Notes: generated by a model from the sequence alone, not told the origin. 64,000 nt of DNA from Argiope bruennichi (GCF_947563725.1 NC_079163.1:54758922-54822921); one strand, 5' to 3'; positions 39,049 through 64,000 are shown, counted from the stretch's first letter. Numbers and translations are program-made.

Positions 39049-40727
39049 CTGTATTTTTCAGGCATGAAACTAATGAAAAATCACAGTTCTAATCATAAAA
39101 ATGCATACAATATGTAAAATCGTTATACTAGCTAGTTAGAATTTTAAAAAAATAAGAATTGCAGAGATAAAGAAAGTGAACCTCTATCAGCATGAAGAAT
39201 GTTATACAGTTCATACAAACAAATATATTCATTATTTATTTTAGTACAATTAATAATAACAGTTTTAGCTATTATATTTAGTAAATATTACAGAATAATG
39301 AAATTAATATTGAATATATACTGTTTATTTTTTAATTGATACAATATGACAAAGATTTTCAAGGATGATAAATTATTTCACAAAGAAAAAAAAATACTTT
39401 TATAACAAATAAAACGTAACAAAATGTCTGCATGGTAGACAATGTAGAAAGATATGGCCACATCTGCTACCAGGAAAAATAACAAGTTATCCGACGAAAT
39501 ACGAGATAAGAGTCCATTCATATGACAAAGCAATACCATTTTTGTCTGAAAAGTGTGTTCAATTGTGAATAGTCAAAACAGCATTGTAATGCAGATGAAT
39601 GCAGACTTTTCAATTTGAGGACATTTGAAAAATCAAGAAACGAAATATGCATTCATGCACCAAAACAATAAAGGAAATAGACTTTCATGCAACGTACACT
39701 TTCAAGTCCTTTCAAATCAAACATATTAGGATCAAATTTCTTTAACTCATGTAAACATCACGAACAAATATCTTTTAGGAATCAGGTAATCATACGGAAT
39801 CCACAAAATACTGCAAGCTTTACCAAAAATTAGAATAAAATCTCATTTTCAAACTACTGAACATTCATTGTCGTTATATACGCATATACCAGCACAATTT
39901 TTATCCATTCATCGCAAAACTGCAACTATTATGCTACCGTTGTTTTATAATTACAGTTAATAATTCTGTTTCTGCCGACATTTTAAAATTCGACGGCTTC
40001 GCTATTGGAACCAAGGGACGGCCAGAAGGGATTCCGAACGGTCCGAATGCAAAAAATACCATGACCGATTTTGAAAGAAATGGTATGAATGTGTTTCATT
40101 TTAATAATGAAATGGAATAAATTACTATTTGAATGAGATTTGAGATCCAATAGTGTCAAGAACGATTTACCCTCGATAGGTATCATTTTACTTTGTTATA
40201 AAACAAATGTAAGAAAATGAATAAAAAATTACATATTCTAATAAAACTCTGAATAATGTCTGCTTCCAAGTCCCGTAAATTAATGTTTCACCAAGCTCCA
40301 GTTTTGTCCAGACCCAAAGCATTACCCAGGCATTACCCTATTAAACAAGTACCCTAGTAAGCAAAAAAGATTTACCTCATCAAATATTTCATCTATCGGA
40401 TTCGAATTGGCGCAAAGCTAAATTATGATATTATCAATTAATTTGCTATAAAACATGAGACAAAAACTACTTATTGTAATCTTTTAATAATCTGCAAAGC
40501 AAATCACATTTTACAAGTTTATGAGGTACTTTTGTTATTTGATATAATAACTATTATTTGTGTGGGTGAAATGCTAATTTTACAAAAATAATTTTATCAT
40601 TTATCATTTTTTCTGTATCCCTATATCCTTGTGAAACCAATTTGTGTATCGTATTGAACAGCAAAACGCAATGAATACCATCTTATTAAATAAAATTAGT
40701 TTTATAAATATTAAGAATATTACGTAC

Positions 40728-40967
40728 TTCAAAAAGCTGTTATTTCGAATGTAAAAGAATGCCTTCTTTTTCAATAATTTGTCTTCTCTCAGGGCTCCAG
40801 CATGCATTTCAAGTTCAGTTATTGATAAACCACGAGGGTAATCCTTAACCCATTGAAGTTCTGGGGAATCTGGAGGGTCATAATTAAATATAGTACCGTA
40901 TCTGTCACCCAAGATACCGATGAATAAATCAGATTTCTGAGCTTCCAGAAGGCACAATTCAGCAGCA
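40728..40967 (-). CDS. NWD1-like gene, DUF4062-like domain part 2 (AAELCLLEAQKSDLFIGILGDRYGT...PPDSPELQWV...SITELEMHAGALRED...FFYIRN).
   Basis: It has a TTTTATAG acceptor and a GAA|GTACGT donor. The phase joins the previous exon exactly (CG+T = Arg). Confidence 0.65.
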
Positions 40968-41447
40968 CTATAAAAGAAAGTTAAAAATGTAAGCAATATA
41001 CAGTGCAATATAAACAAAATATATAAGATAACAGAAATTAATGAGATTGCTATTTTTGGTTTCAAATATAATATCATGCAAGATTTAAAAAAATAGTTTA
41101 CATAGTGCAATAAAATAATATATCATTAGTTTTACAAAAAAAAGAACAAAAGAAACATTCAAGAACTTCCAAAGAATCCCATATTTTCATTACATTGGTA
41201 AAGTATTATGGTTATTTACTAATTCAGAATTCATTTACAACGTTGCTGAATTCCATAGCAAACTCTACAGACCAGTTTGTCAGCAAATTTCAATGGTAGA
41301 CAAATTGTTCGGACTCCTTGGGAGCAGATATTGCTGATCCGAAACTTGCTTCATAAACCTTACTCTTTATATATTCCTTAGGGTGAGACGAAAGAGCATC
41401 GCCTCCTCCTAAATTCTTTTCGGATGAGGAAAAATTTCCACTTGGTG

Positions 41448-45603: not shown

Positions 45604-46630
45604 CTGTGAAAAAAAAAAAAAAAACGTTAATCAAATGTAGATAATGATTTCCATGCAGTAATAACTTGTAAATGCCGAGTTGTTATATAGGATGAAAAAC
45701 AAAAAAGCCACGAATTACTAAACATATAACATAGAAAACATACAAGAGAACTAAAACTTTATTTCGTAAACTTTCAGAAGCACATACATTTCATTTAACT
45801 ACGAACCACAAGCAGACAGTATTTTATATTGAACCGTTTCTTGGCTAATGGTTCCACTAATATGAGACGGATGGAAGCTAGAAGTTAATACCGTAGCATT
45901 TTATTTTAGTGCTATTTCATATTGTTATTCTTAAATTTAATCGTGGGATAATTTATTAATGTATATTCATAAAGCTTGCATGAATAAAATGAAGCTTATC
46001 ATGTGTACTAAAAATTCGCCTACTTCAGTGGTTTTTAGAACTTCCATACGTCACTGTAATAAATTATTACCCTTTTCGAAGCAAAGTTAATATAAATTTC
46101 ACTGCTTTAGCTTGAACACTAGGTCCCAACGAGCTTCTTTAAAATATAGAACAAACAGTTTATTTTATCTGTTGCATTTCTAAATACTGGTATTCCCGTT
46201 GCGAAGTTGGTTAACACCCGACAGTTGAAGTGAAAGGTTGTTTGCTCAGGAGCAGAGAGCTTGGCAATGGCTGCAATTATTCATTTATAATTAAGCTTCA
46301 TTATATTAAATTTCTTTTTTTCTATCTTGTAAATGACTTTTAAATTCTTACAGTAATGTCTAAATAAAAATATGTACGTCTTTAATAGACTAGTCATTAA
46401 AACCCCTGAGGCAAAAAAATGCGCATTTAAACCCCACATCGATGCCACACTATCGTACATGTTTTATGTTAATTTAGAAAGAAAGTAATTTGCCTTTCCG
46501 AAAAAATATTAACACAGAAATAATAACTAATCAGCGAAATATTACATAACATTTATATACATTATGTCGCAAATCATTTTTTTATATATTTATTATAAAT
46601 ATATTTGGTTTCGTAAACCACAATACGTAC

Positions 46631-46779
46631 CTAGAGTTACTCATAAAAAAATCCACATCTGTATACAGCAATTCAGGGTTAACCATTTCCCGATATTTAT
46701 GAAGAAAAGATTTGATTATTTTTTTAACAGTTTCGTCACCATCCGAGCCAGATCCTCTGAGAACTATCACATGATCTAA
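46631..46779 (-). CDS. NWD1-like STAND gene, most 5' coding exon seen (LDHVIVLRGSGSDGDETVKKIIKSFLHKYREMVNPELLYTDVDFFMSNS). A possible ATG lies at MVNPE.
   Basis: A CCTTAG acceptor (plus 46780-46785) and a CTAG|GTACGT donor (plus 46625-46630) flank it. The phase chains into the next exons. The track's leading M for this ORF is a GTG start, not an ATG. Confidence 0.5.
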
Positions 46780-47440: not shown

Positions 47441-50400
47441 GAAATTTTATAAACCTTAGGATGTTAAACCATATCCAGAGAATGGTTCATAGATTTGTAT
47501 GTTTTGGGTAATTAATGCAAGAAAGCGTAATTATCGTTCAGCCTCATTTTTGTCACAACAGATTGGAAATCATTTTTCTAAATATTAACAGAAAAAAGTA
47601 ATTATGGTACTTAAGATATTTATTAAGAGCAGTTATCCTGCAGAAATGCATTTTCCGATTCACAGGAATTTCTTTATATGCATGTAATAAAAATTTAGCG
47701 CATTTGCTTTTATTTCTAAAAAACTTGCCATAATTTGCTTTTTTTTTTCAATAAATTTTTAATTGCCTTTTTTGTATATAGGAGAAAAAATGCTTTAAAA
47801 CATTAAAAAAATCCTATAATTTAACTGCTATAACTAATTTAATTTGGAGATAATTTTGAGAATCCCACACAAAAAACAAAAAATTCCATTTTTATAAATG
47901 GAAATGAAAAAATTTCAATTTAAATTCCAAATTTCAAATCGGCTGGAGTTCGTCACAATTTCTTTCCACATAATTACAATAAGCAAATAGCACTTTTTTT
48001 GCTTCATACCTGATAATTGAACATAATTAATTAGGAGTAGGCACCCGTTTAATTGACCTCGGCTTGATGAAATGAAAGCAACAGATTTGAACTTTCAAGC
48101 ATGCTATTGTTGTGTTACACTGATAAAAATATCGAAATATCTAGAATGGATTGAAAATGCTTGACCAGATTTTGATTTTGAACTAGAAGCAGGAGAAGCC
48201 CGGTGACTAAGGCTGTAGAACACAACAAAGCTTGAATTATTTAAAATACTTAATTTTTTATAACTTTTGCCGAGTGTTCTTTAACTAAATATCGAATATC
48301 ATATACAAATAAAGATTTAATAAAACGCTTCTTAATCAAATCCCAATATGGTTGCAAAAATTAAGTTTCATCAAGTCGAAAAAACCGGAGTTGTATCTCA
48401 CAGCAATTTAGAACAGCTTGAACTGGTGTTAAAACTCGCTTAGTGCGCATGGAGAAATGATGTACAAATAAAACATAAAAGGCGTTCATATGTCCCTACC
48501 GTGGTTGTAGCAGCCCATCGGTAATCATGAGAAGAAATGAGATTTTTTTAATGCTATTATAAGATTTTCCATTCTCAATTCCCCCCCCCCCTTTTCATTC
48601 TTATTCCCTTGTTAGCATAAAAATTTCTTTGCGATTTAATTAAACACGAATTGGAATATTTATAAAACTTGCTTCTTAATCAATATATTCTTATAATGAT
48701 ATTTGCGAATTTTTAATGCATGGTCGTAGATTTTAATATGAAGCCTCGTATTCCTACCAACTAAAAAATTAAGAAACCGATTTTGATAAGTATGAAATAT
48801 GGAAACAGAAAGAGGACATTGCCTTAGTTATAGCTTTTTAATTTATTTATATTTTTAAGATTTTTTTTTCATCTGCATCAAATGCTAAAATCTACAATCT
48901 GGAAGACTTGACGAAAGATTAAAACCGTTGAAAGAAAGGGTAACAACGCTATTTACATAACAGATTTACATCACTTAAAATAAAATCCCCCCCCCTCTTT
49001 CTAGAGAAAACATATTGCAACTGTATCAATCTCAACATATTCAATGCTACAATATTAGGATATATTGCAGTAACATACTCGGTAACAGGAGATAGTTTAA
49101 CTTAAAATATGTTACCTGATAAAAATTAAAAAAAAAAAAAAATACAGAAGGAATACAGAGCATTTTAAAAATACAGGGCATTGGTTCGTTAATGCACAGA
49201 TTCTTTCCTCTTTCTTTAGGTTGTCATAGCACTTTTACCGTTTTTTTTTTTTTTGTCGCATTTTCATTTTTTTTTTATTCCGTTTTCTACGTCTTTTTTT
49301 TTTTTTTTTTTTTTTCACCAGACTTAAAGATTTCCGTTTAGGGGCCATATTCACTATAAGAAATCTAAAGTAAAACTGAATTTAAAGTGAAAATCTCGAT
49401 CACAATTAATGGAAAAAATTCTTAGAATAGATGCTAAAAATTACATATGATTCATCCGTAAGTATTTATTGCTTTTTTGCAAAAGCTTTCCGTTCTTTCG
49501 AGATTTTCTGTTGAAATTAAAAATCAGCGAAATAGATTTTTTTTTTCGATATACGGTAATTGGGGGATATGAGGGTTTCAGTGTATCTTCTAAAATTTAA
49601 TTTAAGCTTATATTCACTGAATTAAAATGTAGCACGAGGTCGAATATTAAAAATTTGTTAACAAAAAATTAACAATAAGTTAACCAAAATTAAAATGCAA
49701 CAAAAACTCGTGTATAGATGTCAAAAATATTTCTATTTAAATAAGCATAATCTTTACTAATTCATGTTAAATAACTGGTAACAATATTGTTATATCGAGG
49801 GTTGAATTCGATACAATTTGTTGGTAAATTAATAGACAATCAGAGTTGATTTTGCAATACATATTTTTCGCTAACTTATCATCAAAAATATGTATATGTA
49901 CTGTTAGACATTCAACATGAAAAAGACCATTTGTTTGAGATGTGTATTTAAAATGTATGACAAGCACGGTTTTTATTCGATTAAATGAATTAAAAATCAT
50001 ATTGTGCTATTAAGAGTAAGGTATTTACACCCTCCCTTCACCTTCTAGCTTTGCCAAAAGAAGCCTGCTATTGAGAAAAGATCGCATTTTTAAAATTAAG
50101 GAATCGAGCTCTTTGTCATACGTCAATGAAGTCCACAAACTTTTCAAAAACTAAGACGCAGATATACGATCTCCCCTCCCCCAAATGCGTTGCCAATGGA
50201 ACATGAAAAACAGGGAACTTGTAAGTATTCACTTAGCCAATACACGAGCGAAAAAGAAGCTCTACAGTTTCAAAGCCTTAAAGAAACGCTAACGTAAGCA
50301 TAAATGAATAACACCTGCATGAAATCACAGGTAAATCTATTAAGAAATCTTCATTTCGTACCAATGGTAACTACAAAATGGTGTGAGGAAGATTCGTTTC

Positions 50401-51751
50401 ATAATCCACCCTTATAAAGTTCAAACAAGTAGCAACAGAAATATAGGATTAATAGAAAAACGCAACTTGGGATTTTACAAAGTAAGTTCAATTTTTTAAT
50501 AAAATTTTGATTTTGATACTCGTTAAGAAAATTTCAAGAATGGCATTTCGAATAAGAAAAGTAACTATACGACGATTATAATAGAAGATACTAATTATCA
50601 AACTATAATATTTATCATTGCTAGATAGTATTTGTAACAGCATTTTGATTTTCGTATTATGAAAGAAAAATTCAAGAATTAAATTTTTTTTGTGTGGAAT
50701 TTATTTGATAGATATCGATTAATTATCGAGTCATAGTACTAAATCTAATATGTAATAAAATAAAGAATTTGAATGATTAAAATTTATTTTAATTTATTGC
50801 AGAAAATATAGCTGCAAATAACTGATTAAATCGTATACTTTTAATTTTATTATTATTTAATAATCACGATTCTGATGTGCATACATTAGTGTGTGTTAAT
50901 TAATTTTTACATTTTAGTTAAACATTTTTCAAATGATATTTCTGTATGGATAATCTTTTAAATTTTTAAAGAATATTTTCAGTATTTAACAGCTATTTAT
51001 CACGATTTTACAATCACAAAAACACTAATCTATAAATTAAAATATATAAAATAAAATAATCCCAAAGCATAAGCATGACCGGAAATTCTACTAAAATTGT
51101 GATGTTTGCTAAAATATTTTTAAGAGTATAATCCTTGTGACATTTAAAATTTTAAAATAACATTTCAAACTGCTGAAATTTACAGAATATTCATTTTTCC
51201 AAAGAGTTCATTATAGTCCTTTTTTTTATTATTTATTTATTTATTTATTTATTTTTTGCTTTTTCAACACTTGAAAATTTTTAAAATAGCATTATATGTT
51301 TGAATAGTTAGGATAAGGGAGAGGTAAGGGTACAATAATCTATTTTTTGAAATAATTATTCATTACAAAGTGGAAATACCGACAGAATTTTAAAAGCAAC
51401 TTCTTAGAAACAATTTCCGCTTGGATATATAAGTTTAAATTTTTTAATCAAAATAAAGTTACTCACTTTCTTTATATAATTTTCTTCGATTTTCGCAATA
51501 TAATTCAAAATAACGGGGAATATAAATAATTTTTGGACAGACACATAAGAATATTACATGGAATCAAAATTTAAAAAAAAAAAAAATAATAAAACTATTA
51601 ACCCTTTCTAGAGCCGTGGGAAGTATGCTTCCCACCAAATTTATCAATCTTTGTATGAATTTATGAAGGTTGGCATAAGTTCTCACAAATTTTTTTAGAA
51701 AGACAGAAATTTAGATGCTTTAGTTCTTTATTTATTAGGTAATCTAGAATT

Positions 51752-51985
51752 TTCGACTTACTGACCTCTCATCGATGTCTAACTGTACAAGATGACAGCA
51801 TTGTACGGTTTCTTCAATTATAAATCATGATCACACTTAGGATACACAACGAACTTATGAATAAAGTTTAATAGGCAATACTGACCTTTCGATGCTCTAC
51901 ATTATTGATTTCTTATTGACGTTTAACTGCATTAGAAAGACAGCACTGTAAGGCTTCTTGAATTATAAATCGCGATCAGGCTTAG
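51752..51985. repeat. Two tandem copies of a ~110 bp unit (…CTGACCTYTCRATG…ACAGCAYTGTA…CTTCAATTATAAATCRYGATCA…CTTAGG).
   Basis: The two copies can be aligned by eye. Confidence 0.5.
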
Positions 51986-53685
51986 GTCTAAGGAAGCTAA
52001 GATAGCAAATACTTCCTCCAGATTCTTTAAAATAATTTTTAAAAGAAATGCTTTCAATTAAAATTTTTAAATCAAAATATAGAAAATTAAATTTATTCAG
52101 ATTTTTAATGAAATAAAACTTTATTTGTATAATTTATTTTGATAAGTTTCAGTACGTCTGGGATTATGAAATATTTTTTTAAAACGGAAAGCCATCGTGA
52201 CTTAAAACAAAAAAAAACAGCTTTATTGCATAAAAAATCGTTTTATCAAAGAAAAACTATATATGTAAGAATTTTATAAGTTTTCCTGACAAAAAAGTAA
52301 AAGAAAGAAACTGCTGTTGCAAAAATTCTGAAACCGAATTATTTATTATTTATATTTTAATTGGAATTTTAAATAAATAGAAAATTAAGAGAAATGTCGA
52401 TGCTTTCCCGCAGTAACTTCCAAAAATATTATTGAAAAAAAACTTTTATTCATGCAATTATGTAATTTTGTAAACAATAATTAAGACGTTATAACGACAA
52501 AAATTGTGAAATTAGCATGTATATAAACTTAAATGTTATATATATAGAAAATGACAAGAGAGAATGTTTAATTTTTGCATCCCACAAATTTTCTTAATAT
52601 TAAAAAATTATTTAAAATAGAAAACGAAAATAACACACCAAACTGAATATACTTGAGTCGAAGAGAAAATACTAAGAGATATAAACCAATTAACAAGTTT
52701 TGCAGAGTTTCTGGCTGCAAATAAGTTAGCCCAGGATTACAATCATCCATCATTGCTTTATTATTTCAACTAGGACTTACAATTTTAGTTTCTAAATTTA
52801 TATTATATTATAACATTATACGTCAATTTAAATCATTCGCTTATACAACTAATCAATATTATAATAAAACAAATATTTTAGTTTTATATTTTTATAAGAC
52901 GGATTCAAGTTCCAAAAATATAGTTTCGTTTTTCTATCAAAAAAAGAACCAAATAATCTCGATACCATTTTAAAATATCTGAATTCAATTCAAACAGCGG
53001 ATATTTAAAACAGCCGAATAGCTAAAATATTACAGGAATGAGAAAAAATTAATTGAATAGCAAGTTTCAGGTATAATAAAAAATTTACAATTTAATGTAA
53101 ATCATTATTATATATTCAATGAATTAGTGATAGATAACATTCCATAGAGCTTATTATTATTATTTTGATTTATTATTTTTTTAATTAAAGAATTTAAGTT
53201 TTTCTACATTTTTTGGAAGTACCAAGCACAAAAAGCGATTTTAATTTAATTCACAGATCTACATTTAATACTCTCAAATAATCAGCAAGTCAGACAGTGA
53301 CTAAAGAGTTTTCAAATTTTAATGTCTTCCTGTATACACATAAATCGCATAAATATGAAATGTATATTTTATGTGCAAGATTTTTTAACAATTTTTAATA
53401 ATTTTTTCAATTTAAAACTCAATTATTGCTTTCAATACAATGTAATAATATGTTAATACCATAGTTAAAAATGTTATTGATTGGAAAAGAATTTGCATTA
53501 GTTATATTTAATTTACAATAATCAAATATAAAAATTTTATTAAAAATATTTACGAAAGTTTTGATTCAACGCCTTCATTTATTTGTCATTTTATATCAGT
53601 CCTTTTAAAGACATATGAATAGAGCTCTGCTGCACTTGTATTTGAAATAATATTCTATCATTGCATATTTTTACCAAAGCATTGA

Positions 53686-56295
53686 ATGCTTTTCTTTCAG
53701 ATGAAATTCTTTGATAAGCTCTGCCTTTTACTTTTCCTCACAAATGTGGACTCCCGACTGAAGGAGCAACATCGGCCATGCTCATTCAATCCTTTATGCA
53801 CATGCTCCAATGGAGGTCCAGATTTAGGTTCCGTATGCTGCCATAACATGCCATTAATGACTGTTCCATCTCAAATCAATAATTCTGCAATTTACATCAT
53901 GAGTCTTAAGGATAACAAATTGCGTTATCTAGAAGATAATAGTTTAAATGGAACTGGGCTCTGGAAACTTCAGATTAACAACAATCTGCTCACGGATTTA
54001 CCGCCCAACGCTTTAGCGGGACTCGAGAAAACATTATCGATTCTAGATTTGAGAAACAATAACTTAATACGAATACCAAAAGAAGCAATACAGAACTTAG
54101 AGAAACTAAGTAATTTGAATTTGGCTGATAACAAAATTGCCTTCTTACAAACAGATGATTTTCGCAATTTGGGTACTAGTTTAAAAGTTTTAGATTTATC
54201 TGAAAACGCTCTAATGCAAGTTCAAAATGACGCATTTCGTAATATGGTATCTTTAGAACTTTTGAATCTTGCACATAACTCCATAATTTCAATTGATGAT
54301 ATAACGTTTCATGGAGGGTTGAATAATTTAAAGCATATAAATCTTATGGGTAATCAGCTTCAGCAAATACCACTGAATGCTCTGGCTAGTTTTAAAAATA
54401 TTAAAACCGTAAACTTGAATGAAAATCTGATTTCCACTATATCCGAAGGAAGGGAAATAAGAAACCGCATCTATTTAGATGAACTGCATCTTGAACACAA
54501 TCTTATAGAAGAATTGACAGCAGAAAGCTTCAGACTTTTTAATCAAGTAAACCGTATCTTTTTGAAGGGCAATCCAATTACAACAATTAATGACACTTTT
54601 CTGACAGCCAATACAACTGAAATTTATATGCCTCATTGTTCGATATCAGAAATAACAAAAAATGCATTTTTTAGTTCAACACATTCATTGCAAGTTTTAG
54701 ACCTTAGTTATAATAAAATAAAAGAATTTCCCTTTTTACCACTGACAAAGTTAAACAAATTATCACTTTCTGGAAATTCTCTAAAAGAAGTTACGCCGGA
54801 AGATATTAAGTATTGTGGGAATCCATTGAAATATCTAGATATTTCTGGATTAAAGATGAATGGGTTGTCGCAAGAAAGCATGAAATATTTACCAAACATA
54901 AGAGAGTTATCACTCAATAAACCAACGCCAGTTATCAATACAGAATACTTACAAGACATTGGACCTTCAATGGAAAAACTATCTTTGACAAGAAGTTCAA
55001 TCAAAGTAATTGAAAATGGAGCATTTCACAGACTAAGCGGATTAAAAACATTAGATCTATCCCATAATGTCATATCAAAAATCGGAAATACCACTTTCAG
55101 GGATGTAAAGCATTCATTAGAAAAACTTGTTTTGCATAATGCTTTAAAATTAACATTATTCCCATATAAAGTCTTAAATTCTCTATCAAAGTTGGAATAT
55201 TTAGATACGAGTAGCAATCGTATCCAATATTTAACACAGAATTCTTTTTCGTCATTTCAAAACTTGAGATATTTAAATTTAAATCATAATGAACTGAAAA
55301 ATCTAGATCCGAATATAGTAAATGATATGCATAATCCAAACCTCTCATACCTGAAAGTAGCATTTAACAAAATTAGAGAACTAAAAACCCACATATTTCG
55401 AAATTTGCGAAATCTGATTTATTTGCAACTAAATGATAATTTGATTGACAACATACACAAATCTGCCTTTCTTGATTTAGACTCGGTAATGATTATTCGT
55501 CTAGAAGGGAATTTGATCAAAACCATTGATAATGAAGCATTCCAAAATTTGCCCAATATTCAGTTAATAAATTTGGGATATAATCAGCTATCTTCTTTCA
55601 ATTTGGAAGCTTTTAACCAGGTAGGAAGATTATCAACTTTAAGGATAGATGTAGATCACAACAACATTCAGAATTTAACAGGAAATTATACGGTTATTCA
55701 TACTTCAAGCAACATAAAGTATCTCAATTTTAGCTATAACAATATATCCTATTTGGACACCAACTACTTAGATCCAATAAGGCTGTCACTTACAGTCTTA
55801 GACTTAAGCCATAATAAATTGGTAAACTTAACTTCCCAGGCATTTACAAATCTGGCTCATCTGCAGACCCTAATACTTTCAAATAACGAGATTGAAAGCA
55901 TAGAAGAAGAAGAATTTAAAGGTCTCCGATCTATACAAATATTAGATTTATCAAAAAATAACTTAAATACTCTACCAGAAAATTTATTTGAAAGACAAAA
56001 GCAATTAAGAATACTTTCATTGGCATACAATGAGATGGAACAGATACCTGCAGATATTTTTAAAAATACTATAATCGAGCAACTAGATTTATCATTTAAT
56101 GACTTGCAAGAATTTCCAGAAGATTCAACATTTCATATCAAAGATACTCTGCAGTTAATCGACTTAACTGGAAATGCAATAGAATTCCTTAATTTCAGCA
56201 ATATAGCATCATTGCCAAATTTACGGTATCTGGACCTTTCCCGAAACACACTAACTCTACTTAGTTCAACAGAAGAAATGCAACTACCACATCTA
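53686..56295 (+). CDS. chp: Chaoptin-like LRR protein, exon 1 (870 codons, phase 0-0). It encodes a signal peptide, an LRRNT cysteine cluster (PCSFNPLCTCS...DLGSVCCHN) and about 30 LRRs. A GTAAGT donor lies at 56296.
   Basis: The track shows a continuous 892-aa ORF. The LRR consensus LxxLxLxxNxL repeats throughout. Motif blocks match Drosophila chaoptin in order: PC.FN.CTCS..DLG.V.C.N.P, LHLEHNLIEEL...VNRIFLKGNPI and GYNQLSSFNLEAFNQVGRLSTLRIDVDHNNIQNL. The ORF tail after 56295 (VSIINFIFK...) is intron read-through. TTTCTTTCAG immediately precedes the second ATG at 53701, so the true start may be 53701 with a 5'UTR intron upstream. Confidence 0.8.
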
Positions 56296-56734
56296 GTAAG
56301 TATAATTAATTTCATTTTTAAGACGATAAAAAGTCTTTCAAATAATATGTGCAAAACTTTTTAAAAAACTGAACTTTCAAGGAAAAACTGTTGCACTATA
56401 TTGAATTTTGCAAAACAAAATTCAAGTATAAAACTCACAGAAAATAAAAACTATAGCATTAATAAACATAAAATAGTTAATAGTTTATTTTCCAAACATG
56501 ATTCAGACTTTTAGATGTTTTATTGTCTCTTGATCGCAATACATATGCTTAGTTTTACTTAAAAGTTTGTCTCCAGACAACATCGTCAATTTCGTTTCAT
56601 TAACGGGAAATTTTGCTCTCTTTTCTCATCAATAAAAAGAAAATATTCAAATTTTAAAAAAATGTGTAGAAAAAAGATGCTACTATTCAAATTTGTGACA
56701 TAGATCTGAAATATATTCTTATTTTCACTTTCAG

Positions 56735-57529
56735 ATGACCCTGGATTTATCTCACAACATAATAAAAGAATTTCCAGCATGGATGAGTAACCAATTACCC
56801 TCTAGTCTTGAGGAACTCAATTTAGCGAATACAAGTTTGAAAGAAATTCCAGTGCTGACATCGTCGTGTAACGTTTTAGTATTGAACCTGAGTTCCAATA
56901 ATATACAAACGGTGGAACACGAGACATGGGAACAACTAAAGAAAATCCAAATTTTGGACTTATCTAATAATCTGTTGATAAATACATACAACAACGTATG
57001 GTCAAACCTGCAGTATTTAAAAAGCTTGTATTTGCAAAAGAATCCAATACAAAAATTATCAAACAATAGCTTCACGAATATGGAAAGGTTGCAGGAGCTA
57101 TTTATAAAAAATTTGAAATTGCAAGAAATCGATCAAGATACGTTCCATACACTGACAGCATTGAAAAAGATAGAACTAGATACATACACAGGAAGGAGTA
57201 CCAATGTATCTCAACTGTTTCATGGTAACCAAGGAATTCATGAAATACATTTGCATGTACAAGAGAATGGACTGGATGGGATTTTCAACGGAGATCTTCC
57301 TAAATCATTAAAATCTATCATTCTGGAAGGTGATAATTTAAAATACTTCGACGAGTCAGTCTTTTCGAGCATTCGAAGTCATACTCTTAACCTGAATATT
57401 CGAAACTCAAACATCACAAAATTTCCACAGAAGGTTTTTGAAAATATGAAAGAAACAAAAAATTTCACAGCAGCATTTATAAACAACAAGTTGCATACGC
57501 TTGAAAAGCTATACACAACAGAGGGAGAG
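56735..57529 (+). CDS. chp: Chaoptin-like LRR protein, exon 2 (265 codons, phase 0-0). The acceptor is TTTTCACTTTCAG|ATG and the donor is GAG|GTAATG.
   Basis: A 267-aa ORF carries more LRRs (LDLSHNIIKEFP, LDLSNNLL...). It joins exon 1 in phase (…MQLPHL|MTLDLSHN…). The splice consensus is present at both ends. Confidence 0.75.
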
Positions 57530-58774
57530 GTAATGTAGTCTTTTTTAATGCAAATAGTTTGATATATTTTTAAACTTTCAAATGTGTAATACAAATAAAT
57601 CACCAAATTTAGATACACGGAATAATAATACAAAAAAATCATTAGTATTTTAGGAAATAAACGCTTTTTTTACACATTACTGAAATAATATTTTACATTT
57701 ATTTTGCTTTAATAATATTTCGTAATTTTAAATAATTTTGCATAGTAATGTTAAGGGTCCTTTTTTAGCATATCAATAGCTGTTTCAATCCAATAATTTG
57801 ACTGCGCGCCCTGAAATTGTACAAGATACTTTTTCAAATGAAAATGATTTTTTTTCTTTTGTTTTGCAGGTTAATTTCATTTTTATAACATCCCCAATTA
57901 AAATAATCAAACAAAGGCTAAAAGAACTGCTTATTCGAAACTGAATATGAGTTCCGGAAAAACAGTAACCAGGATAAGGTTAAGCTCTGATGGGCCTCTT
58001 AGGCAATGCAAGTTTCGAGGGTCATTTTCCTCCTCTCAAACTTCCGAAACCAGATATATTTTATAGATTTTATCTCTATATAAACCAGTTTTTACGAGAC
58101 ACATTTTGCAGTAAATTGAAATAGAACAATTAATTGCAAGTTATCTTAGAAATATTTGTTTCAGTATCTCGATATATAAAAATTTAAAAGTAATTTTATA
58201 AACAAAGTGATAAAAATTTTCAAAACTTTTTAAACGCATTTTAAATACCAAAATACAAAATTTGTAAGGATTGTTTATTGACTTGTGAGCCAGTCAACTA
58301 ATTGATTTGCAAGTGAATTTGAAAATATGGAGAAGAAACCATAACAATGTTCTGAAATTTGTTTGAGTTTATGATCTTTGAATCGAATGAAAACACATAA
58401 TTGGATAACCATGAAAATACCACTATAAAATATCGGGTCTTCCAAAGTTATGAGGCCCCTAGGCAGTTGCTTATATTGCATATTTAATATATATATATAT
58501 ACTTCCTAACTTCCAAAACCAGATTTTTTTTGCCATTGATGTTAATCTTTTTATTTCTATATAAGCAGTTTTAAATAGCAAATGTGACAAACTGAAAAAC
58601 TAAATAATTTAATTTCAGTCATTTTTCAGAAAACTAGTTTTTTATTATACTAAAGTTATATGCAGCCTTCAAACATTATATCATTAAACATGATAGTTTT
58701 CTGCCAATGAAAAACTTGTCATATTGTTTTTATTAAATTTACTTTTTTTTTTTTTTTTTTTTTTTTGCAAACAG

Positions 58775-59098
58775 GTACCAGAAAAGCACCTCAAACATTT
58801 GAAGTTATCTGGAAATCAACTACACTGCAACTGTGACCTTTCCTGGATATGGGAGTGGATAAAAGAATATGAATATGAAACTCAGTGTGAAGAAATGATA
58901 TGCGAAGAGACTTACTTGCACGATTTGCGCGAAGCTGTATGTGTTAACATGAACAACAGATCAATTATTACTGTATTTAAAACAGAACTCGATTGCTTCT
59001 CAAGCGGTACATTAGCAAAACCTGCAATTGGAATATTACTTCATCTCTTCTTGAGCACTGCATTTATGCTATTTTATAACATAGTGATTGTTGCATAA
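58775..59098 (+). CDS. chp: Chaoptin-like LRR protein, terminal exon. It has an LRRCT cap (NQLHCNCDLSWIWEWI...C...C) followed by a hydrophobic GPI-signal-like tail (AIGILLHLFLSTAFMLFYNIVIVA), with the stop at 59096-59098.
   Basis: A T(21) polypyrimidine tract and ACAG acceptor sit at 58746-58774. The in-frame join is TTEGE|VPEKHLKHLKLSGNQLHCNCD. Chaoptin ends DLNCDCDLGW...C followed by a GPI signal. Confidence 0.7.
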   Translation, partial: VPEKHLKHLKLSGNQLHCNCDLSWIWEWIKEYEYETQCEEMICEETYLHDLREAVCVNMNNRSIITVFKTELDCFSSGTLAKPAIGILLHLFLSTAFMLFYNIVIVA

Positions 59099-59375
59099 AA
59101 CTGTATCGCCTTTCCTCAGTAACTGCTTCTTATAAATCGAATTAGAAAATTCATTGAAAATTTTAATATCAAGCACTTAAATAACAATATAGGAATTTTA
59201 TATTAACATAAGTTGCATAATGTTACTTATTATGCTTGATGTAAATATAAATTTAAAAATTCGCCTAAAAGTTACATTAAATTTTCTAAAAAACAGTGGA
59301 TATTAGAATGGATAGTTACTGAAGTTAATAAAAATCAATGTTATTTAATGTAAATTTGATGTGATTTTGTAATAT

Positions 59376-59520: not shown

Positions 59521-62500
59521 TAATCATTGGAATTGATATTTTTGATTCTATAAGCGATTCTTTCAAATGTTAATTAATCAGTACATACAAAAATCCATTT
59601 AAATCTGCTTAAACTTTAAAACATTTCTTCATTTCATTCAGACAAATTTTTTTTTTTATTTTTTCGTTTTTTCGCCCTTCTGAAAATGTTTCAAAATTAT
59701 TGCTATTGTTTGTTTCTGTAATATTATAAATGCACACTTCAAAATTTCAAGTAGTTATCAAAATATGTTAAAACTTAATTTGATTTGACAATTTAACTTT
59801 TTTGATTGAGACAATTTAAAAACTTTTACAATGTATAAGAAAAGCCACAGTATTTTTTTTTTGGGGGGGGGGTCTTAATCATATCTTAAAAATACTTTTC
59901 GATATTAATAACATATTGAATCAAAACATATCTGGTATGTAAATCAGTCAGTTAAAAGAAAGCAGGAGGATTTCTTAATTTAGATTTCTTAAATTTCTTT
60001 CCATTTATGTATCCTTTGGAAGATGATATACATTATAATAATAGTACATTCCAGTCAGAAAATTTTTTCTAACTCCAAAGTTAGAAAATAAATAAGAAAG
60101 CGAAGAAATAATTATTGAAAACCATATTACCACAGCAAATTTAATGATTTTTTTTTATCAGATGTTTTTTTAAGTTACTTTTATTTTCAAATGTTCAAGA
60201 GTCTCAAAGAAAAGTATTCTTTGATTTCTCAACCTGGATTGAGATCGTGCGTTTAAGATATTCTGACAAACGGCCTTCAAGAGAATATGAAATCTACTAA
60301 AATTATAAATGTTGTGTTTTGCCAAGATGTCGTGAATGAAAAGAAACAGATTCCCAAGGCGAAAAACTACTCAAATCCGAATTTTTTCCCACCAAGATCT
60401 TTGCAAATAATAATTTTTTTAATACACACTGGTAATAGTTAATGCATGTTGGAGTGGATAAATAGTTGTTAATAAGAGGAGTAAAATATTAATCATAACA
60501 ATCTTTCAAAAGATTCTACCAAGGTGGTAATCACTTTTTGAACTTTCATCAATAGATTAACTATGCATAAGTATAATTATCACCTATATTTTTTCAGCAG
60601 TTAAAATGCAGCAAATTAATACCATATCTAACATAGAACATGAAATTAAAAAGAAATGAGTGTGCAAAAATAAACACTGTATGATTATTAATGATGGAAA
60701 CATTAAACAGATATCAAAAATTTAAGTAACAAAAAATAAATAACAATAAATAAATATCAAAATCAGCAATTATAACTCAAATCTAGGACCATTTTGCATT
60801 CATAAGGGGGGGGGACTCATAATTTTAAGATATGGAATTTATTTAATAATTTGGAATTGGATTCACAAACCAAGCAAAAGAAATTGTATATTTACAGGCA
60901 AAAGTAATAATCACTTCACAAATAGCTGAAACGCATACAGTAGATAGAATGGCACAGATGACAAATTTCTTTAACTTTTCAATATTTAACTAAACAATTA
61001 TCTATTATATATGTTATAACAGAAAGCTTACAAATAATTTTTAATATTGACAAAAACATATAAAAGAGGCAAAAAATCGGTTTATTAAATGAACATAGGA
61101 AAATGGAGGCAAAAATAGTTTATCTTCCACAAATTTCATCGTATTTAAAAACTCATTAGCATTAATATTATGTGTATTAAATAGTTTATAATACAATGTT
61201 AATTTCCTTCCTATCGAGACAACAGCATACACTAGTGACATTATTTTTACATTTCTAGTAACAATGTGAAAATTCATAAATTCAGTTAGAATTTATATCT
61301 TTTACACACTCAATCAAATTTACAATAAATACACACACAATGCATAGATATGTTTAAAACATATAAAAAAAAACAGGCGAATATTTGATTTTAAAAAATG
61401 CAGAATATTAAAAGAAAAATCACTTTCGGAACATGATATAAATAATTTGAAAACATTTTTTTAAATATTTTTCGCATTAACAATGCAAATACACAATTAA
61501 AAATATTCAATTATACTAGTATCCAGGTATTAAAATTACTTGTATCAGGATTTAAAAATATTCAGGTATACTGCAACTCCTAATACCGGTTATCAACCAA
61601 TAATTTTTAGTATGTTGTAATTAAATCAAAAACGTTTTCCTCTTCTAAAATTGATTGATAAAAGCAGCACATATTAACAACCGGAGAAAATACTGCATGA
61701 CCAAAATGTTTTTGAATGAACATGATGTTGACCTGTAATAAATTTGATTGCTTCTTTTTATATGAGCGGAAAACTACGTCTAAATTAAGCTTAACGAACA
61801 ATTTAATTTGATAATTCAATCATGGTCTGATACAAGTTGCAATCAGTGACGGTTCCTAGTCAAGAAACAAGCAGAATGAGAAAAAATATCTCATTATAAT
61901 TAAAGAACAATTTTTTAAAAAAGCAGCTTCACCTCTAAATAGACAACAATTTTTAACTATAGTTATTTCAGTTGCATTTAAGAAAAATATCTACGTGTGT
62001 TTCTCAATGAGTGACTTCTAATAAAAGTAAACGAATGTGTATGAAAGCTGATTTCGCCGAGAAAACGTGAGAGCGAAAGCAGATCCAAACAACAGCTAAT
62101 GCGAAAACAAAATCAAAAGAGCAAAAACAAGACTTGTGTGGGAAGGAAGGGATGGGATAAATATCCTCACATAGTTTAACGTGGGCCAGAACATCTCTTA
62201 AGCTGTGACCAGAGCAGCAAGTCACCGGCAATTTCAATGGGAAATTTTTATTTTTACCTTCCGCTAGAACGCAATGAAAGAATTTAAATAATTTCTAGCG
62301 CTGTTCGGAGACCAGTCCCAATTTCCATAGTATTTTTTATTATGCTAAGAATATCAATTTTGTCCCAAAAAAGCCCGATATTTCCTAATTTATTTTCTTA
62401 TCCAACAAGAACTGCAAGAAAATTATGGAAAACTGTAATGTACCGAAGTTTCGTTGAGGCTTAAAAGTTGAAGAATTGATGTGCATGCCTACTATAGTTA

Positions 62501-63430
62501 CAATCGTAAAGAAAGACGAAACAAAAAAGAAAAAAGATGCAGCCTTTTAAACTGCAACTAAAAAGAAATCAATGAAGGTTTATACTTAAGCTTTAACACA
62601 AGAAAAATTATTGAAATATAAAAAGAAATCTATGAAATACTGAAAACTATCTGAATTTTATTATAACTATAAAAATATTGCCACGAAATATATAGGGTGA
62701 TTAGGAAATCAGAAAAATTTTTGAAAATAAATAATTAGCAAAACAATGAAGATAGAGAAATACTTTTTGAACAAAAAGGATAAAAATGATTTTTTGTTGT
62801 CACGCAACTATAATTTATTGGTTGCATATGTAGTGAACGTGATATTTTGGATTGGCAATTAATTGATTGAAGATTTTAAATAAGAAGGAAATTCAAAATT
62901 TTTGTTTGAAAATATAACTTTATTTAATTAGGTATTGTTCTTTTTTTATCGTTGATCTTTTGTCGTATTTAAGGCCGTGTCATAATACTATGTTCATAAA
63001 TATTACGATTTTTGTCGGCAAAAAAACTAAATTAAATAAAATCACCAGCATCATTAAAAATTTTACCATTTAAGTTCTGCATTGAACAAAATAAATAAAA
63101 ATCTAAAAGCGTTATTATAGCTACATGGCGAACATGACAACACATCCCAATTTATCTTTGTAAATTTTTGTCGAGTGACTAAGCATACGAGGGAGGCTTT
63201 GCATTGCCATGTTAGAAAACAACCCGCTAAATATTTGTCAATTCTAGCCTCTTCTCTTGAAATGCATAGACATTTGAATTAACCATTTAGTTCCAAGATC
63301 AAAATTAACAGCATAATCCTTTTTTTTTGGGGGGGGGGATCTCGGATTTGATGTTGTCTAGGCTGAATTCAAAAATAAATTCGCGCAAAAATTACTGCTT
63401 TTAAATAATTTCCTACTCAAAACCAAAGGA

Positions 63431-64000
63431 TATATATTGTTACGAATCTGTGATGCTGCTTCCCAGCATAGTTGGTTCCATCATCAGAAAGATTGTTTTA
63501 CAGTCATATGTATTGGACAGAGTCCGGGTGTCGCGTCGGAGGTCCCAAACCTTGGCGACCATTTGGCGACTTGGCGACGAATTTGGCGACTAAATAGATT
63601 ATACCCGAAACATCGAGAATTTTCCCGGTCCGTTCATTAGTAACCGAGATATGCCTCCAAAGTTCCTGATTGGTTGAGAAGCTTCTAGCCCCGCCTCCTG
63701 AGACCTATAAAAGGAGGCAGTCTGCAGCTGCCGGGGTAGTAGTCGGAATCGACGGTAAAGAACGAGTCTTCCAGAGATTAGCAGAGCAGCGACGGAGTCA
63801 AGCTAGTGCTGAACTAAGCTGTGCGCTACTGTCTGCAGTAGAGTCTTGTTGTATGTTACTGTGTGCACGTCTCGGCTGAAGATAATTGTCTTCTCTATGC
63901 TGTATATAGTTGTCGTCTTTGTGCTGTGCAGTCCTGTCTTCGTGTCAATAAACGTCGTTTTTTTTCTACTGCCGCCTGCTGATTGAGCGTTCTCCACACC
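63431..64000 (+). mobile_element. Partial LTR or 5' region of a retroelement running off the window end. It has promoter architecture and a polyA signal.
   Basis: There is an abrupt switch to GC-rich sequence. A tandem TTGGCGAC x4 lies at 63551-63593, with an inverted CCAAT (GATTGG 63668-63673), a GC box (CCCCGCCTCC 63689-63698), TATAAAAG at 63706-63713 and AATAAA at 63947-63952. Confidence 0.45.
63668..63713 (+). promoter_or_regulatory. CCAAT box, GC box and TATA box core promoter.
   Basis: GATTGG, then about 15 bp, CCCCGCC, then about 8 bp, TATAAAAG. This is the classic Pol II spacing. Confidence 0.45.

What the first reader, a model, noticed from the sequence alone, without database searches (positions are those of the whole stretch)
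53686..59098. Chaoptin orthologue with a 2.6 kb intronless first coding exon and a GPI-type tail
Conserved blocks are shared with Drosophila chaoptin in order. These include the N-terminal cysteine cluster, the EHNLIEEL…GNPI block, the GYNQLSSFNLEAFNQVGRLSTLRIDVDHNNIQNL block and the C-terminal NCDCDL…C cap followed by a hydrophobic tail. Together they identify a photoreceptor cell-adhesion LRR protein of about 1240 aa in three coding exons. The TTTCTTTCAG just before the second ATG (53701) hints at a spliced 5' UTR.
Basis: partly seen in the sequence, partly recalled or inferred. Interest (0 to 1): 0.5.

Follow-up and report, generated by a model that had tools for sequence, protein, structure and literature searches.

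The report
Spider chaoptin gene, ordinary orthologue

Summary
Window 53686-59098 (+) holds three GT-AG, phase-0 coding exons: 53701-56295, 56735-57529 and 58775-59098. They give 1237 aa from the conserved ATG at 53701, or 1242 aa from the upstream ATG at 53686.

The product is 77% identical to Nephila pilipes chaoptin. It aligns as one collinear stretch with Drosophila chaoptin (32% identity, 571 bits). Reciprocal BLAST and an NJ tree (100/100 bootstrap) place it in the true chaoptin clade. It does not fall in the older "chaoptin-like" paralogue clade or the artichoke-like clade, and it is not Toll or Slit.

The architecture matches chaoptin:
- signal peptide
- LRRNT cysteine cluster
- about 45 LRR turns (AF2 pLDDT 88)
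- LRRCT cap
- a tail of small residues (SSG), a short spacer and 23 hydrophobic residues running to the stop, which is GPI-type

dN/dS against Nephila is 0.07. The spliced 5' UTR is supported comparatively. All five arachnid genomic loci examined have a polypyrimidine tract plus CAG directly before the ATG. A 195-bp conserved block at 50215-50406 matches Nephila's annotated 5' exon.

Eye expression and GPI attachment are inferred, not shown. Verdict: supported but ordinary, low interest.

The parts
50215..50481 (+). Candidate promoter-proximal region and non-coding 5' exon(s) of chaoptin. The conserved block is 50215-50406. Conserved donor-like sites are CAG|GTAAAT at 50330/50331 and AAA|GTAAGT at 50481/50482.
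   Evidence: This is the only non-coding block conserved with Nephila in the 6.7 kb upstream: 81% identity over 195 bp, E 1e-46, although dS is about 2. It overlaps Nephila's annotated first exons, L003 10001-10012 and about 10125-10178. Similarity to the 5' UTR of the spider mRNA contig L001 is only suggestive: score 25 against shuffles of 19.2 +/- 2.3. The exon limits are inferred, not shown.
50482..53700 (+). Putative 5'-UTR intron of about 3.2 kb, ending in ttttctttcag directly before the initiator ATG
   Evidence: A polypyrimidine tract plus CAG abuts the conserved ATG in the window, in L002, in Nephila, in Stegodyphus and in Centruroides. The mRNA contig L001 has an unrelated, purine-rich sequence before its ATG. 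The Nephila gene model uses this acceptor.
53701..56295 (+). Coding exon 1, 2595 bp and 865 codons from the conserved ATG. An in-frame upstream ATG at 53686 lies inside the polypyrimidine tract.
   Evidence: The ORF is and the gtaagt donor. The Trichonephila clavata and Parasteatoda models start at the equivalent MKF/MKV codon. The exon boundary after about aa 868-876 is conserved in Nephila, Stegodyphus and Centruroides. P0004 reads through into the intron at the same point.
53701..53754 (+). Predicted signal peptide MKFFDKLCLLLFLTNVDS, with cleavage after VDS by the -3/-1 rule
   Evidence: The sequence has a basic n-region, an 8-residue hydrophobic core, and V at -3 and S at -1. This rests on a rule of thumb, since no SignalP was available. 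The N-terminus is conserved in spider orthologues.
53776..53841 (+). LRRNT cysteine cluster (P-C-x5-C-x-C-x10-CC)
   Evidence: Cys32, 38, 40, 51 and 52 in the 1242-aa numbering. These align with the Drosophila chaoptin N-terminal cap and are nearly invariant in alignment A2.
56296..56734 (+). Intron 1 (439 bp, GT-AG, phase 0)
   Evidence: The sequence is unique within the window.
56735..57529 (+). Coding exon 2 (795 bp, 265 codons, LRRs)
   Evidence: Nephila and Stegodyphus have an exon of the same 265 codons.
57530..58774 (+). Intron 2 (1245 bp, GT-AG, phase 0)
   Evidence: It contains no LRR-like ORF. It holds only a weak internal 24-nt repeat and a poly-T run.
58775..59098 (+). Coding exon 3 (107 codons plus TAA), carrying the last LRR, the LRRCT cap and the GPI-type signal
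   Evidence: It aligns with the C-termini of chaoptins.
58826..58996 (+). LRRCT cysteine cap (HCNCDLSWIWEW...C...C...C...DC)
   Evidence: Cys1153, 1155, 1173, 1178, 1191 and 1209. The cap Cys and Trp residues are nearly invariant in A2.
59000..59095 (+). GPI-attachment-type signal. S-S-G are candidate omega, omega+1 and omega+2 residues, the spacer is TLAKPA, and 23 hydrophobic residues (IGILLHLFLSTAFMLFYNIVIVA) end at the stop codon.
   Evidence: The last 20 residues have a mean Kyte-Doolittle hydropathy (KD) of 2.04 and no charged residue. It is the only TM-like segment besides the signal peptide. The same layout follows the last LRRCT Cys in Drosophila, other insect and arachnid chaoptins.
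59276..59332 (+). Candidate polyadenylation signals: ATTAAA at 59276 and AATAAA at 59327
   Evidence: The related mRNA contig has a 3' UTR of about 180 nt. These are motif matches only.

Best explanation
The locus is the single-copy chaoptin (chp) orthologue of an orb-weaver-related spider genome.

**Shown:**
- An intact three-coding-exon gene encodes a 1237-aa precursor.
- The precursor has a signal peptide, an LRRNT cap, one long solenoid of about 45 LRR turns with 19 N-glycosylation sequons, and an LRRCT cap.
- Its hydrophobic C-terminus has no cytoplasmic residues.
- It lies in the same clade as Drosophila chaoptin and is under strong purifying selection.

**Inferred from orthology and from the published Drosophila work:**
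- The precursor enters the ER, where the C-terminal roughly 31 residues are replaced by a GPI anchor at the S-S-G site.
- The glycoprotein sits on the outer leaflet of photoreceptor microvillar membranes.
- There its LRR solenoids bind those on neighbouring membranes homophilically, which keeps rhabdomeric microvilli tightly packed.

**Also inferred.** Transcription most likely starts near 50.2-50.3 kb. A roughly 3.2-kb 5'-UTR intron is removed, using the acceptor that abuts the ATG at 53701.
For: **Gene model.** Searches give the exons. An mRNA-like contig from a related spider aligns to the three exon blocks with no extra coding sequence.

**Orthology.**
- 77% identity to Nephila chaoptin, 39% to scorpion and 32-34% to insect chaoptins.
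- The Drosophila chaoptin cluster was identified.
- Reciprocal BLAST separates chaoptin from the paralogues.
- The NJ tree gives 100/100 bootstrap support.

**Position.** Nephila has the same neighbours: a DUF4062/WD40 gene upstream on the minus strand.

**Architecture.** Pfam finds only LRR families. The AF2 model has pLDDT 88.4 and pTM 0.83, with about 45 regularly spaced beta-strands and a helical C-cap.

**Tail and signal peptide.** Both pass the rule-of-thumb checks and are conserved across chaoptins.

**Constraint.** dN/dS is 0.069 against Nephila.

**Function in flies.** Chaoptin is a GPI-anchored adhesion protein needed for microvillar stability and inter-rhabdomeral adhesion (PMC4021355, read, which cites Krantz & Zipursky 1990, Van Vactor 1988 and Reinke 1988).
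Against: - There is no expression evidence from this species or from any spider eye tissue.
- The tissue of the Logan run that yielded the mRNA contig is unknown.
- No dedicated GPI or signal-peptide predictor was available, so the omega site rests on rules of thumb.
- The tree is a distance-based NJ tree on sequences pre-selected by word-sharing searches, not a full ML analysis.
- D. melanogaster chaoptin itself was not retrieved. D. elegans, the representative of a 90%-identity cluster of 88 Drosophila sequences, stood in for it.
- Identity to insect chaoptin is only about 32%, so functional equivalence is an extrapolation across more than 500 My.
- The position of the 5' exon is inferred from one annotated relative plus conservation.
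Confidence: 0.88

Rival explanations
1. It belongs to the older "chaoptin-like" paralogue group rather than to chaoptin proper. That group includes other proteins from Parasteatoda, Argiope, Larinioides and Limulus, crustacean "chaoptins" and insect chaoptin-like proteins. The chaoptin name would then be only a database label.
For: Database names are inconsistent, and group-B and group-C proteins are also called chaoptin. All these groups share the same overall architecture and 26-29% identity with the window protein.
Against: Scores to true chaoptins are 555-762 bits, against 337-387 bits to group B and 222-280 bits to the artichoke-like group. The same ranking holds in the reverse direction. 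Both clades have 100/100 bootstrap support, with the window protein inside the chaoptin clade.
Confidence: 0.03
2. It is a true chaoptin orthologue, but in spiders it is not photoreceptor-specific or has a different main role. For example, it could be a general neuronal or epithelial LRR adhesion molecule.
For: No expression data were obtainable. Spider eyes are camera-type, with rhabdom organisation unlike that of the fly. Arachnids also keep one or two group-B paralogues that could share roles.
Against: Sequence constraint is strong (dN/dS 0.07), and the full architecture including the GPI-type tail is conserved. A spider comparative-genomics paper treats chp as a visual-system gene, although by annotation only (PMC13372096).
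Confidence: 0.15
3. The C-terminal hydrophobic stretch is a true transmembrane anchor, or is simply retained, rather than a cleaved GPI signal.
For: Only rule-of-thumb criteria were applied. The hydrophobic segment, at 23 residues, is long enough to span a membrane.
Against: - No residue follows the hydrophobic segment, so there is no stop-transfer basic cluster and no cytoplasmic tail.
- A small-residue triplet (S-S-G) lies 6 residues upstream.
- The same layout occurs at the same place in Drosophila chaoptin, for which the cited literature reports GPI linkage (PMC4021355).
Confidence: 0.08
4. The locus is a decaying or non-expressed copy (pseudogene).
For: There is no direct transcript evidence from this genome, and the exact protein is absent from the protein collection, where the best hit is 77% identical.
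Against: - The 1237-codon reading frame is uninterrupted and all splice sites are canonical.
- dN/dS is 0.069.
- It is the only copy in the window.
- The upstream block and the acceptor are conserved.
Confidence: 0.02

Closest known systems
Drosophila chaoptin (chp; represented here by the D. elegans member P0124 of the 88-member Drosophila chaoptin cluster)
   Same: - The two align as one collinear stretch from the LRRNT cysteines to the last LRRCT cysteine (32% identity, 571 bits).
- They share the domain order: signal peptide, LRRNT, more than 40 LRRs, LRRCT, then a small-residue cluster and a hydrophobic C-terminus.
- Neither has a cytoplasmic domain.
- They fall in the same clade.
   Different: - The window protein is about 78 aa shorter, and the fly protein has insertions near the C-terminal third.
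- The fly and beetle genes have at least 7 coding exons, against 3 here.
- The fly gene is not nested in a TEP1-like gene.
- Function and GPI linkage are proven only in the fly.
Annotated arachnid chaoptins: Nephila pilipes GFS98073.1, Trichonephila clavata GFQ89702.1, Parasteatoda tepidariorum XP_042896279.1, the Stegodyphus dumicola chaoptin-like protein and the Centruroides sculpturatus chaoptin-like protein
   Same: - Identity is 77%, about 64%, 62% and 39% respectively.
- In Nephila, Stegodyphus and Centruroides the first coding exon spans about 870 codons and the start ATG abuts an acceptor. Nephila and Stegodyphus also show the same three coding exons.
- The flanking TEP1-like gene is on the opposite strand.
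- The N-terminus MKFFDK... and the tail layout are shared.
   Different: This is a different species, since no exact match exists in the collection. Several database models carry non-conserved N-terminal extensions that are probably annotation artefacts.
"Chaoptin-like" paralogue group B (e.g. Parasteatoda XP "chaoptin" P0071, Argiope P0054, Limulus P0049, crustacean P0041 and P0042, insect chaoptin-like P0055 and P0060)
   Same: Length, all-LRR architecture and the N-terminal cysteine motif are the same. Identity is 26-29%.
   Different: It forms a separate clade with 100/100 bootstrap support. Its C-termini are less clearly GPI-like in the sequences inspected: mean Kyte-Doolittle hydropathy over the last 15 residues (KD15) is -0.15 to 0.93, against about 2 here.
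Toll/TLR ectodomains and Slit
   Same: They are long LRR solenoids with LRRNT and LRRCT caps. TLR3, TLR13, TLR8 and TOL-1 are the best solved-structure matches.
   Different: - Matches are partial only, at most 150 bits and query-normalised TM-score (TMq) at most 0.35.
- Pfam reports only LRR families, so no TIR domain (Toll) and no EGF, LamG or CTCK domains (Slit).
- The only TM-like segment sits at the very C-terminus, so there is no transmembrane-plus-cytoplasmic region.

Membership tests
Chaoptin (chp) orthologue group | Reciprocal best similarity with, and monophyly with, Drosophila chaoptin to the exclusion of other LRR paralogues | tested here: met
The NJ tree gives the chaoptin clade 100/100 bootstrap support.
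Chaoptin (chp) orthologue group | Extracellular protein built almost entirely of LRRs (about 40 or more), between LRRNT and LRRCT cysteine caps, with a signal peptide and no other domain | tested here: met
   Pfam finds only LRR families. There are 33 strict-consensus repeats with a 24-residue period, the cap cysteines and 19 N-glycosylation sequons. The AF2 model shows about 45 regularly spaced strands and a helical C-cap, with pLDDT 88.
Chaoptin (chp) orthologue group | C-terminal GPI-attachment signal instead of a transmembrane-plus-cytoplasmic region | tested here: met
   Rule-of-thumb criteria are met: S-S-G, a 6-residue spacer, and 23 uncharged hydrophobic residues ending at the stop. 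The layout is shared with Drosophila and other chaoptins. No dedicated predictor (big-PI, NetGPI) was available, and the biochemistry is not testable here.
Chaoptin (chp) orthologue group | Photoreceptor-specific expression and localisation to rhabdomeric microvilli | not testable with these tools
   No RNA-seq or tissue data exist for this species. The origin of the Logan run SRR7472191 was not found in the literature search. RCSI/P3 motifs occur at chance level: 15 observed against 11 +/- 3 expected.
Chaoptin (chp) orthologue group | Homophilic adhesion, and a requirement for microvillar packing | not testable with these tools
   This is known only from Drosophila genetics and cell-aggregation work (PMC4021355).
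Toll / Toll-like receptors | Transmembrane helix followed by a cytoplasmic TIR domain | tested here: not met
   There is no TIR hit. The only TM-like segment is the extreme C-terminus, with nothing after it.
Slit | Four LRR domains followed by EGF repeats, a LamG domain and a C-terminal cystine knot | tested here: not met
   Pfam reports only LRR families. The AF2 model shows regularly spaced LRR strands along the whole length.
Chaoptin-like paralogue group B / artichoke-like group C | Clustering with these groups in similarity ranking and in the tree | tested here: not met

The most novel reading that the evidence does not exclude
The arachnid chaoptin locus may be an unusually constrained genomic unit.

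- In a scorpion and in spiders it lies antisense inside a TEP1-like gene, between the TROVE exons and the DUF4062/WD40 exons.
- The scorpion and the spiders examined keep a single first coding exon of about 870 codons (two or three coding exons in all), while insects have at least 7.
- It keeps a 5'-UTR intron whose acceptor abuts the initiator ATG.

If this nesting has really been conserved for more than 400 My, and also holds in this window, it could reflect shared regulation or transcriptional interference between a photoreceptor gene and a vault/telomerase-associated gene. It could also reflect an ancient event that removed most introns from the gene.
Probability: 0.35. Interest if true: 0.3.

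Novelty: new member of a known kind. Interest (0 to 1): 0.15.

Why it matters
It matters little beyond annotation. The work gives a clean, corrected gene model for chaoptin in this spider genome: start at 53701, three coding exons and a likely upstream non-coding exon. It also confirms that chelicerates carry a true chaoptin orthologue alongside an older chaoptin-like paralogue, which helps anyone tracing the rhabdomere toolkit (chaoptin, prominin, eyes shut, crumbs) outside insects. The inconsistent database naming of "chaoptin" and "chaoptin-like" across the three LRR clades is a practical trap that the tree here resolves. No new biology is implied.

Tried and rejected
1. **Locating the 5' exon by homology with the relative's mRNA.** The 5' UTR of the spider mRNA contig L001 gave no significant match (blastn-short). 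The local score of 25 is within reach of shuffles (19.2 +/- 2.3, maximum 29) and of other window tiles. A 20/22-nt motif does fall inside the conserved block, so this is kept only as a hint.
2. **tblastn of Nephila's N-terminal extension (MISQKYIGFVSKHKLKLKE).** It found nothing. The extension is not conserved and is probably an annotation artefact.
3. **Search for TROVE exons downstream (59.1-64 kb), to show nesting within the window.** None were found, so nesting cannot be shown in this window.
4. **The conserved upstream block in other arachnids.** It was not found within 10 kb upstream in Stegodyphus or Centruroides.
5. **RCSI/P3 homeodomain sites (TAATNNNATTA) as a photoreceptor-promoter signature.** They occur at chance level and are not positionally conserved with Nephila.
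6. **Bacterial-type promoter and terminator scan.** It is irrelevant to a eukaryotic locus and was disregarded.
7. **Rfam scan of 49-64 kb.** There were no hits.
8. **Intron repeats.** Only poly-T runs and one weak 24-nt pair were found.
9. **Fold search against AFDB.** This was unavailable. The PDB fold search returned only generic long LRR solenoids.
10. **Apparent absence of true chaoptin from Parasteatoda.** This was an artefact of a fragment serving as the cluster representative.

Full report
**1. What is in the sequence**

The window is AT-rich eukaryotic DNA, at 25-30% G+C around the locus. An ORF of 892 codons runs 53686-56364 on the + strand. It is followed by ORFs of 267 codons (56735-57538) and 124 codons (58724-59098).

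Reading the junctions and splicing them gives three exons with canonical sites, all in phase 0:
- ...CTA|gtaagt at 56295/56296
- ttcag|ATGACC at 56734/56735
- ...GAG|gtaatg at 57529/57530
- aacag|GTACCA at 58774/58775
- a TAA stop at 59096-59098

The product is 1242 aa from the ATG at 53686 and 1237 aa from the ATG at 53701. With this base composition about 8-9% of random codons are stops. By my estimate, an open stretch of 870 codons has a chance probability near 1e-34. tblastn of the product against the whole window finds only these three blocks, so the gene is single-copy here.

**2. Support for the gene model from relatives**

The protein is 77% identical over its full length to Nephila pilipes chaoptin. 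It is 62% identical to the Stegodyphus chaoptin-like protein, and 61% identical to P0003.

P0003 is a 1233-aa protein encoded without interruption on a 4,021-nt Logan contig (SRR7472191), as an mRNA would be. That contig aligns to the window as three collinear blocks inside the three exons. The contig coordinates leave no room for an extra coding exon.

Mapping the annotated proteins back to their genomic loci shows the same structure in Nephila and Stegodyphus: exons of about 868 aa, 265 aa and 105-108 aa. In the scorpion Centruroides the first coding exon again spans about 870 codons and ends at the same place; the remainder mapped as a single tblastn block. A genomic Logan contig from another spider (P0004/L002) reads through into intron 1 at the same point.

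The fly and beetle genes are split into at least 7 coding exons. A mite orthologue occupies only 3.8 kb. The long first coding exon is therefore real and is a conserved arachnid feature.

**3. Start codon and 5' UTR**

Five arachnid genomic sequences carry a polypyrimidine tract plus CAG immediately before the conserved initiator:
- the window
- L002
- Nephila
- Stegodyphus
- Centruroides

The mRNA contig instead has purine-rich, unrelated sequence before its ATG. The Trichonephila clavata and Parasteatoda (RefSeq) models start at the equivalent MKF/MKV codon. N-terminal extensions in other models are not conserved. The working start is therefore 53701, and the ATG at 53686 lies inside the acceptor's pyrimidine tract.

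The Nephila model places two small exons about 2.9 kb upstream. The only non-coding block conserved between the window and Nephila in the 6.7 kb upstream is 50215-50406. It matches L003 9897-10089 at 81% identity over 195 bp (E 1e-46), even though synonymous sites are near saturation. The block covers those Nephila exons and keeps donor-like sites at 50330|50331 and 50481|50482.

A spliced 5' UTR with an intron of about 3.2 kb is thus well supported comparatively. Its exact exon limits are inferred. Similarity of this block to the relative's mRNA 5' UTR is not statistically significant.

**4. Is it chaoptin?**

Database names are unreliable here, because three related LRR clades all attract the name. 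I therefore tested orthology directly.

- A search with a dipteran chaoptin recovers the Drosophila chaoptin cluster. It has 88 members at 90% identity or more, including D. yakuba, D. suzukii and D. virilis.
- The window protein aligns with the D. elegans representative as one collinear stretch from the LRRNT cysteines to the last LRRCT cysteine (32% identity, 571 bits).
- Scores to true chaoptins are 555-762 bits. Scores to the chaoptin-like paralogues of spiders and Limulus are 337-387 bits, and to the artichoke-like group 222-280 bits.
- In the reverse direction, Drosophila and Tribolium chaoptin hit the window, Nephila, Stegodyphus and Centruroides proteins at 567-625 bits. They hit the paralogues at 298-392 bits. 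The paralogues in turn prefer one another and crustacean or insect chaoptin-like proteins.
- An NJ tree was built from 39 sequences and 1140 columns with Kimura distances. It gives 100/100 bootstrap support to the clade of insect chaoptin plus the window, spiders, scorpion and mites. The paralogue clade also gets 100/100.

Pfam finds only LRR families. The best solved structures are TLR3, ALS, TOL-1 and LGR5, at 150 bits or less over part of the length.

**5. Architecture and likely mechanism**

- **Signal peptide.** From the ATG at 53701 the precursor begins MKFFDKLCLLLFLTNVDS|RLKEQ. It has a basic n-region, a hydrophobic core, and V and S at -3 and -1.
- **LRRNT cluster.** PCx5CxCx10CC follows the signal peptide.
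- **Repeats.** There are 33 strict-consensus LRRs with a 24-residue period, plus degenerate ones, and 19 N-glycosylation sequons.
- **Model.** The AlphaFold2 model of the mature ectodomain was built on a 39-sequence alignment. It is confident (pLDDT 88.4, pTM 0.83). It shows about 45 regularly spaced short beta-strands and a helical C-terminal cap. Its nearest solved folds are long TLR-type solenoids, with query-normalised TM-scores of 0.35 or less.
- **Tail.** After the last cap cysteine comes F-S-S-G, a six-residue spacer (TLAKPA) and 23 uncharged hydrophobic residues that end at the stop codon. This is the only TM-like segment apart from the signal peptide. The same layout follows the last cysteine in Drosophila, other insect and arachnid chaoptins.

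These features fit a GPI-attachment signal by the usual rules of thumb: small residues at omega and omega+2, a short spacer, and a hydrophobic end without a cytoplasmic tail. No dedicated predictor was available.

dN/dS against Nephila is 0.069, so the gene is under strong purifying selection.

In Drosophila, chaoptin is a GPI-anchored glycoprotein needed for microvillar stability and early inter-rhabdomeral adhesion (PMC4021355). By orthology I infer the same mechanism here: homophilic LRR-LRR adhesion between outer leaflets of neighbouring rhabdomeric microvilli. The inference is untested in any spider. A recent spider genomics paper lists chp as a visual-system gene, by annotation only (PMC13372096).

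**6. Context**

Upstream on the minus strand the window has a DUF4062-containing exon within the ORF 40604-41110 (Pfam E 2e-6). A second exon at 46585-46779 is 65% identical to the Nephila upstream neighbour.

In Nephila, chaoptin is flanked by a DUF4062/WD40 gene and a TROVE gene, both on the opposite strand. In Stegodyphus and Centruroides these are annotated as one TEP1-like gene that spans the chaoptin locus. No TROVE exon lies in the 4.9 kb of window downstream, so nesting cannot be shown here. Flies, the beetle and a mite lack this arrangement.

**7. Verdict**

Minor corrections concern the start codon, the protein length and the exact C-cap motif.

The gene is an ordinary, intact orthologue of a well-known gene that is already annotated in several spiders. 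The conserved ATG-abutting 5'-UTR intron, the intron-poor structure and the likely nesting in a TEP1-like gene are modest curiosities. Interest is low.

Noticed in passing
window 40604-41110 (-) and 46585-46779 (-); loci L003, L004, L005: Exons of a TEP1-like gene (TROVE + DUF4062 + WD40) lie on the opposite strand upstream of chaoptin. In Stegodyphus and Centruroides this gene is annotated as spanning the whole chaoptin locus, which makes chaoptin a nested antisense gene. In Nephila the gene is split into two flanking models. TROVE exons are not inside this window.
   Followed up: partly
window 50215-50406 (+): A 195-bp non-coding block is 81% identical to Nephila, although synonymous sites are saturated. 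It is the only conserved element in the 6.7 kb upstream and is probably the chaoptin core promoter or first non-coding exon. It contains a short upstream ATG at 50319 that would be out of frame with the main ORF if spliced as in Nephila.
   Followed up: partly
L004 23400-23717 (Centruroides): A second copy of the last chaoptin exon lies 8.3 kb downstream of the annotated scorpion gene. It is 98% identical at the protein level to the C-terminus of P0007. It could be an alternative terminal exon, a local duplication or an assembly artefact.
   Followed up: no
window 11917-14243 (+), 17711-18487 (-), 36276-36656 (-): Transposable-element remnants. The G+C-richer 8-16 kb stretch holds a retroviral-type aspartyl protease and an integrase zinc-binding domain from an LTR retroelement. 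There is also a Tc1/Sleeping-Beauty-like transposase ORF and a mariner-type transposase fragment.
   Followed up: partly
protein clusters P0006/P0238, P0043, P0054, P0071: Database naming of "chaoptin" is inconsistent across three LRR clades. The Parasteatoda protein named "chaoptin" (P0071) is the paralogue, while the one named "chaoptin-like" (XP_042896279.1) is the true orthologue. Spider group-B paralogues fall into two lineages. No crustacean true chaoptin appeared among the hits.
   Followed up: partly
window 62000-64000: G+C rises to about 35% at the end of the window, with short overlapping ORFs on both strands (63437-63997). It was not identified and may be a repeat or the edge of another gene.
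   Followed up: no
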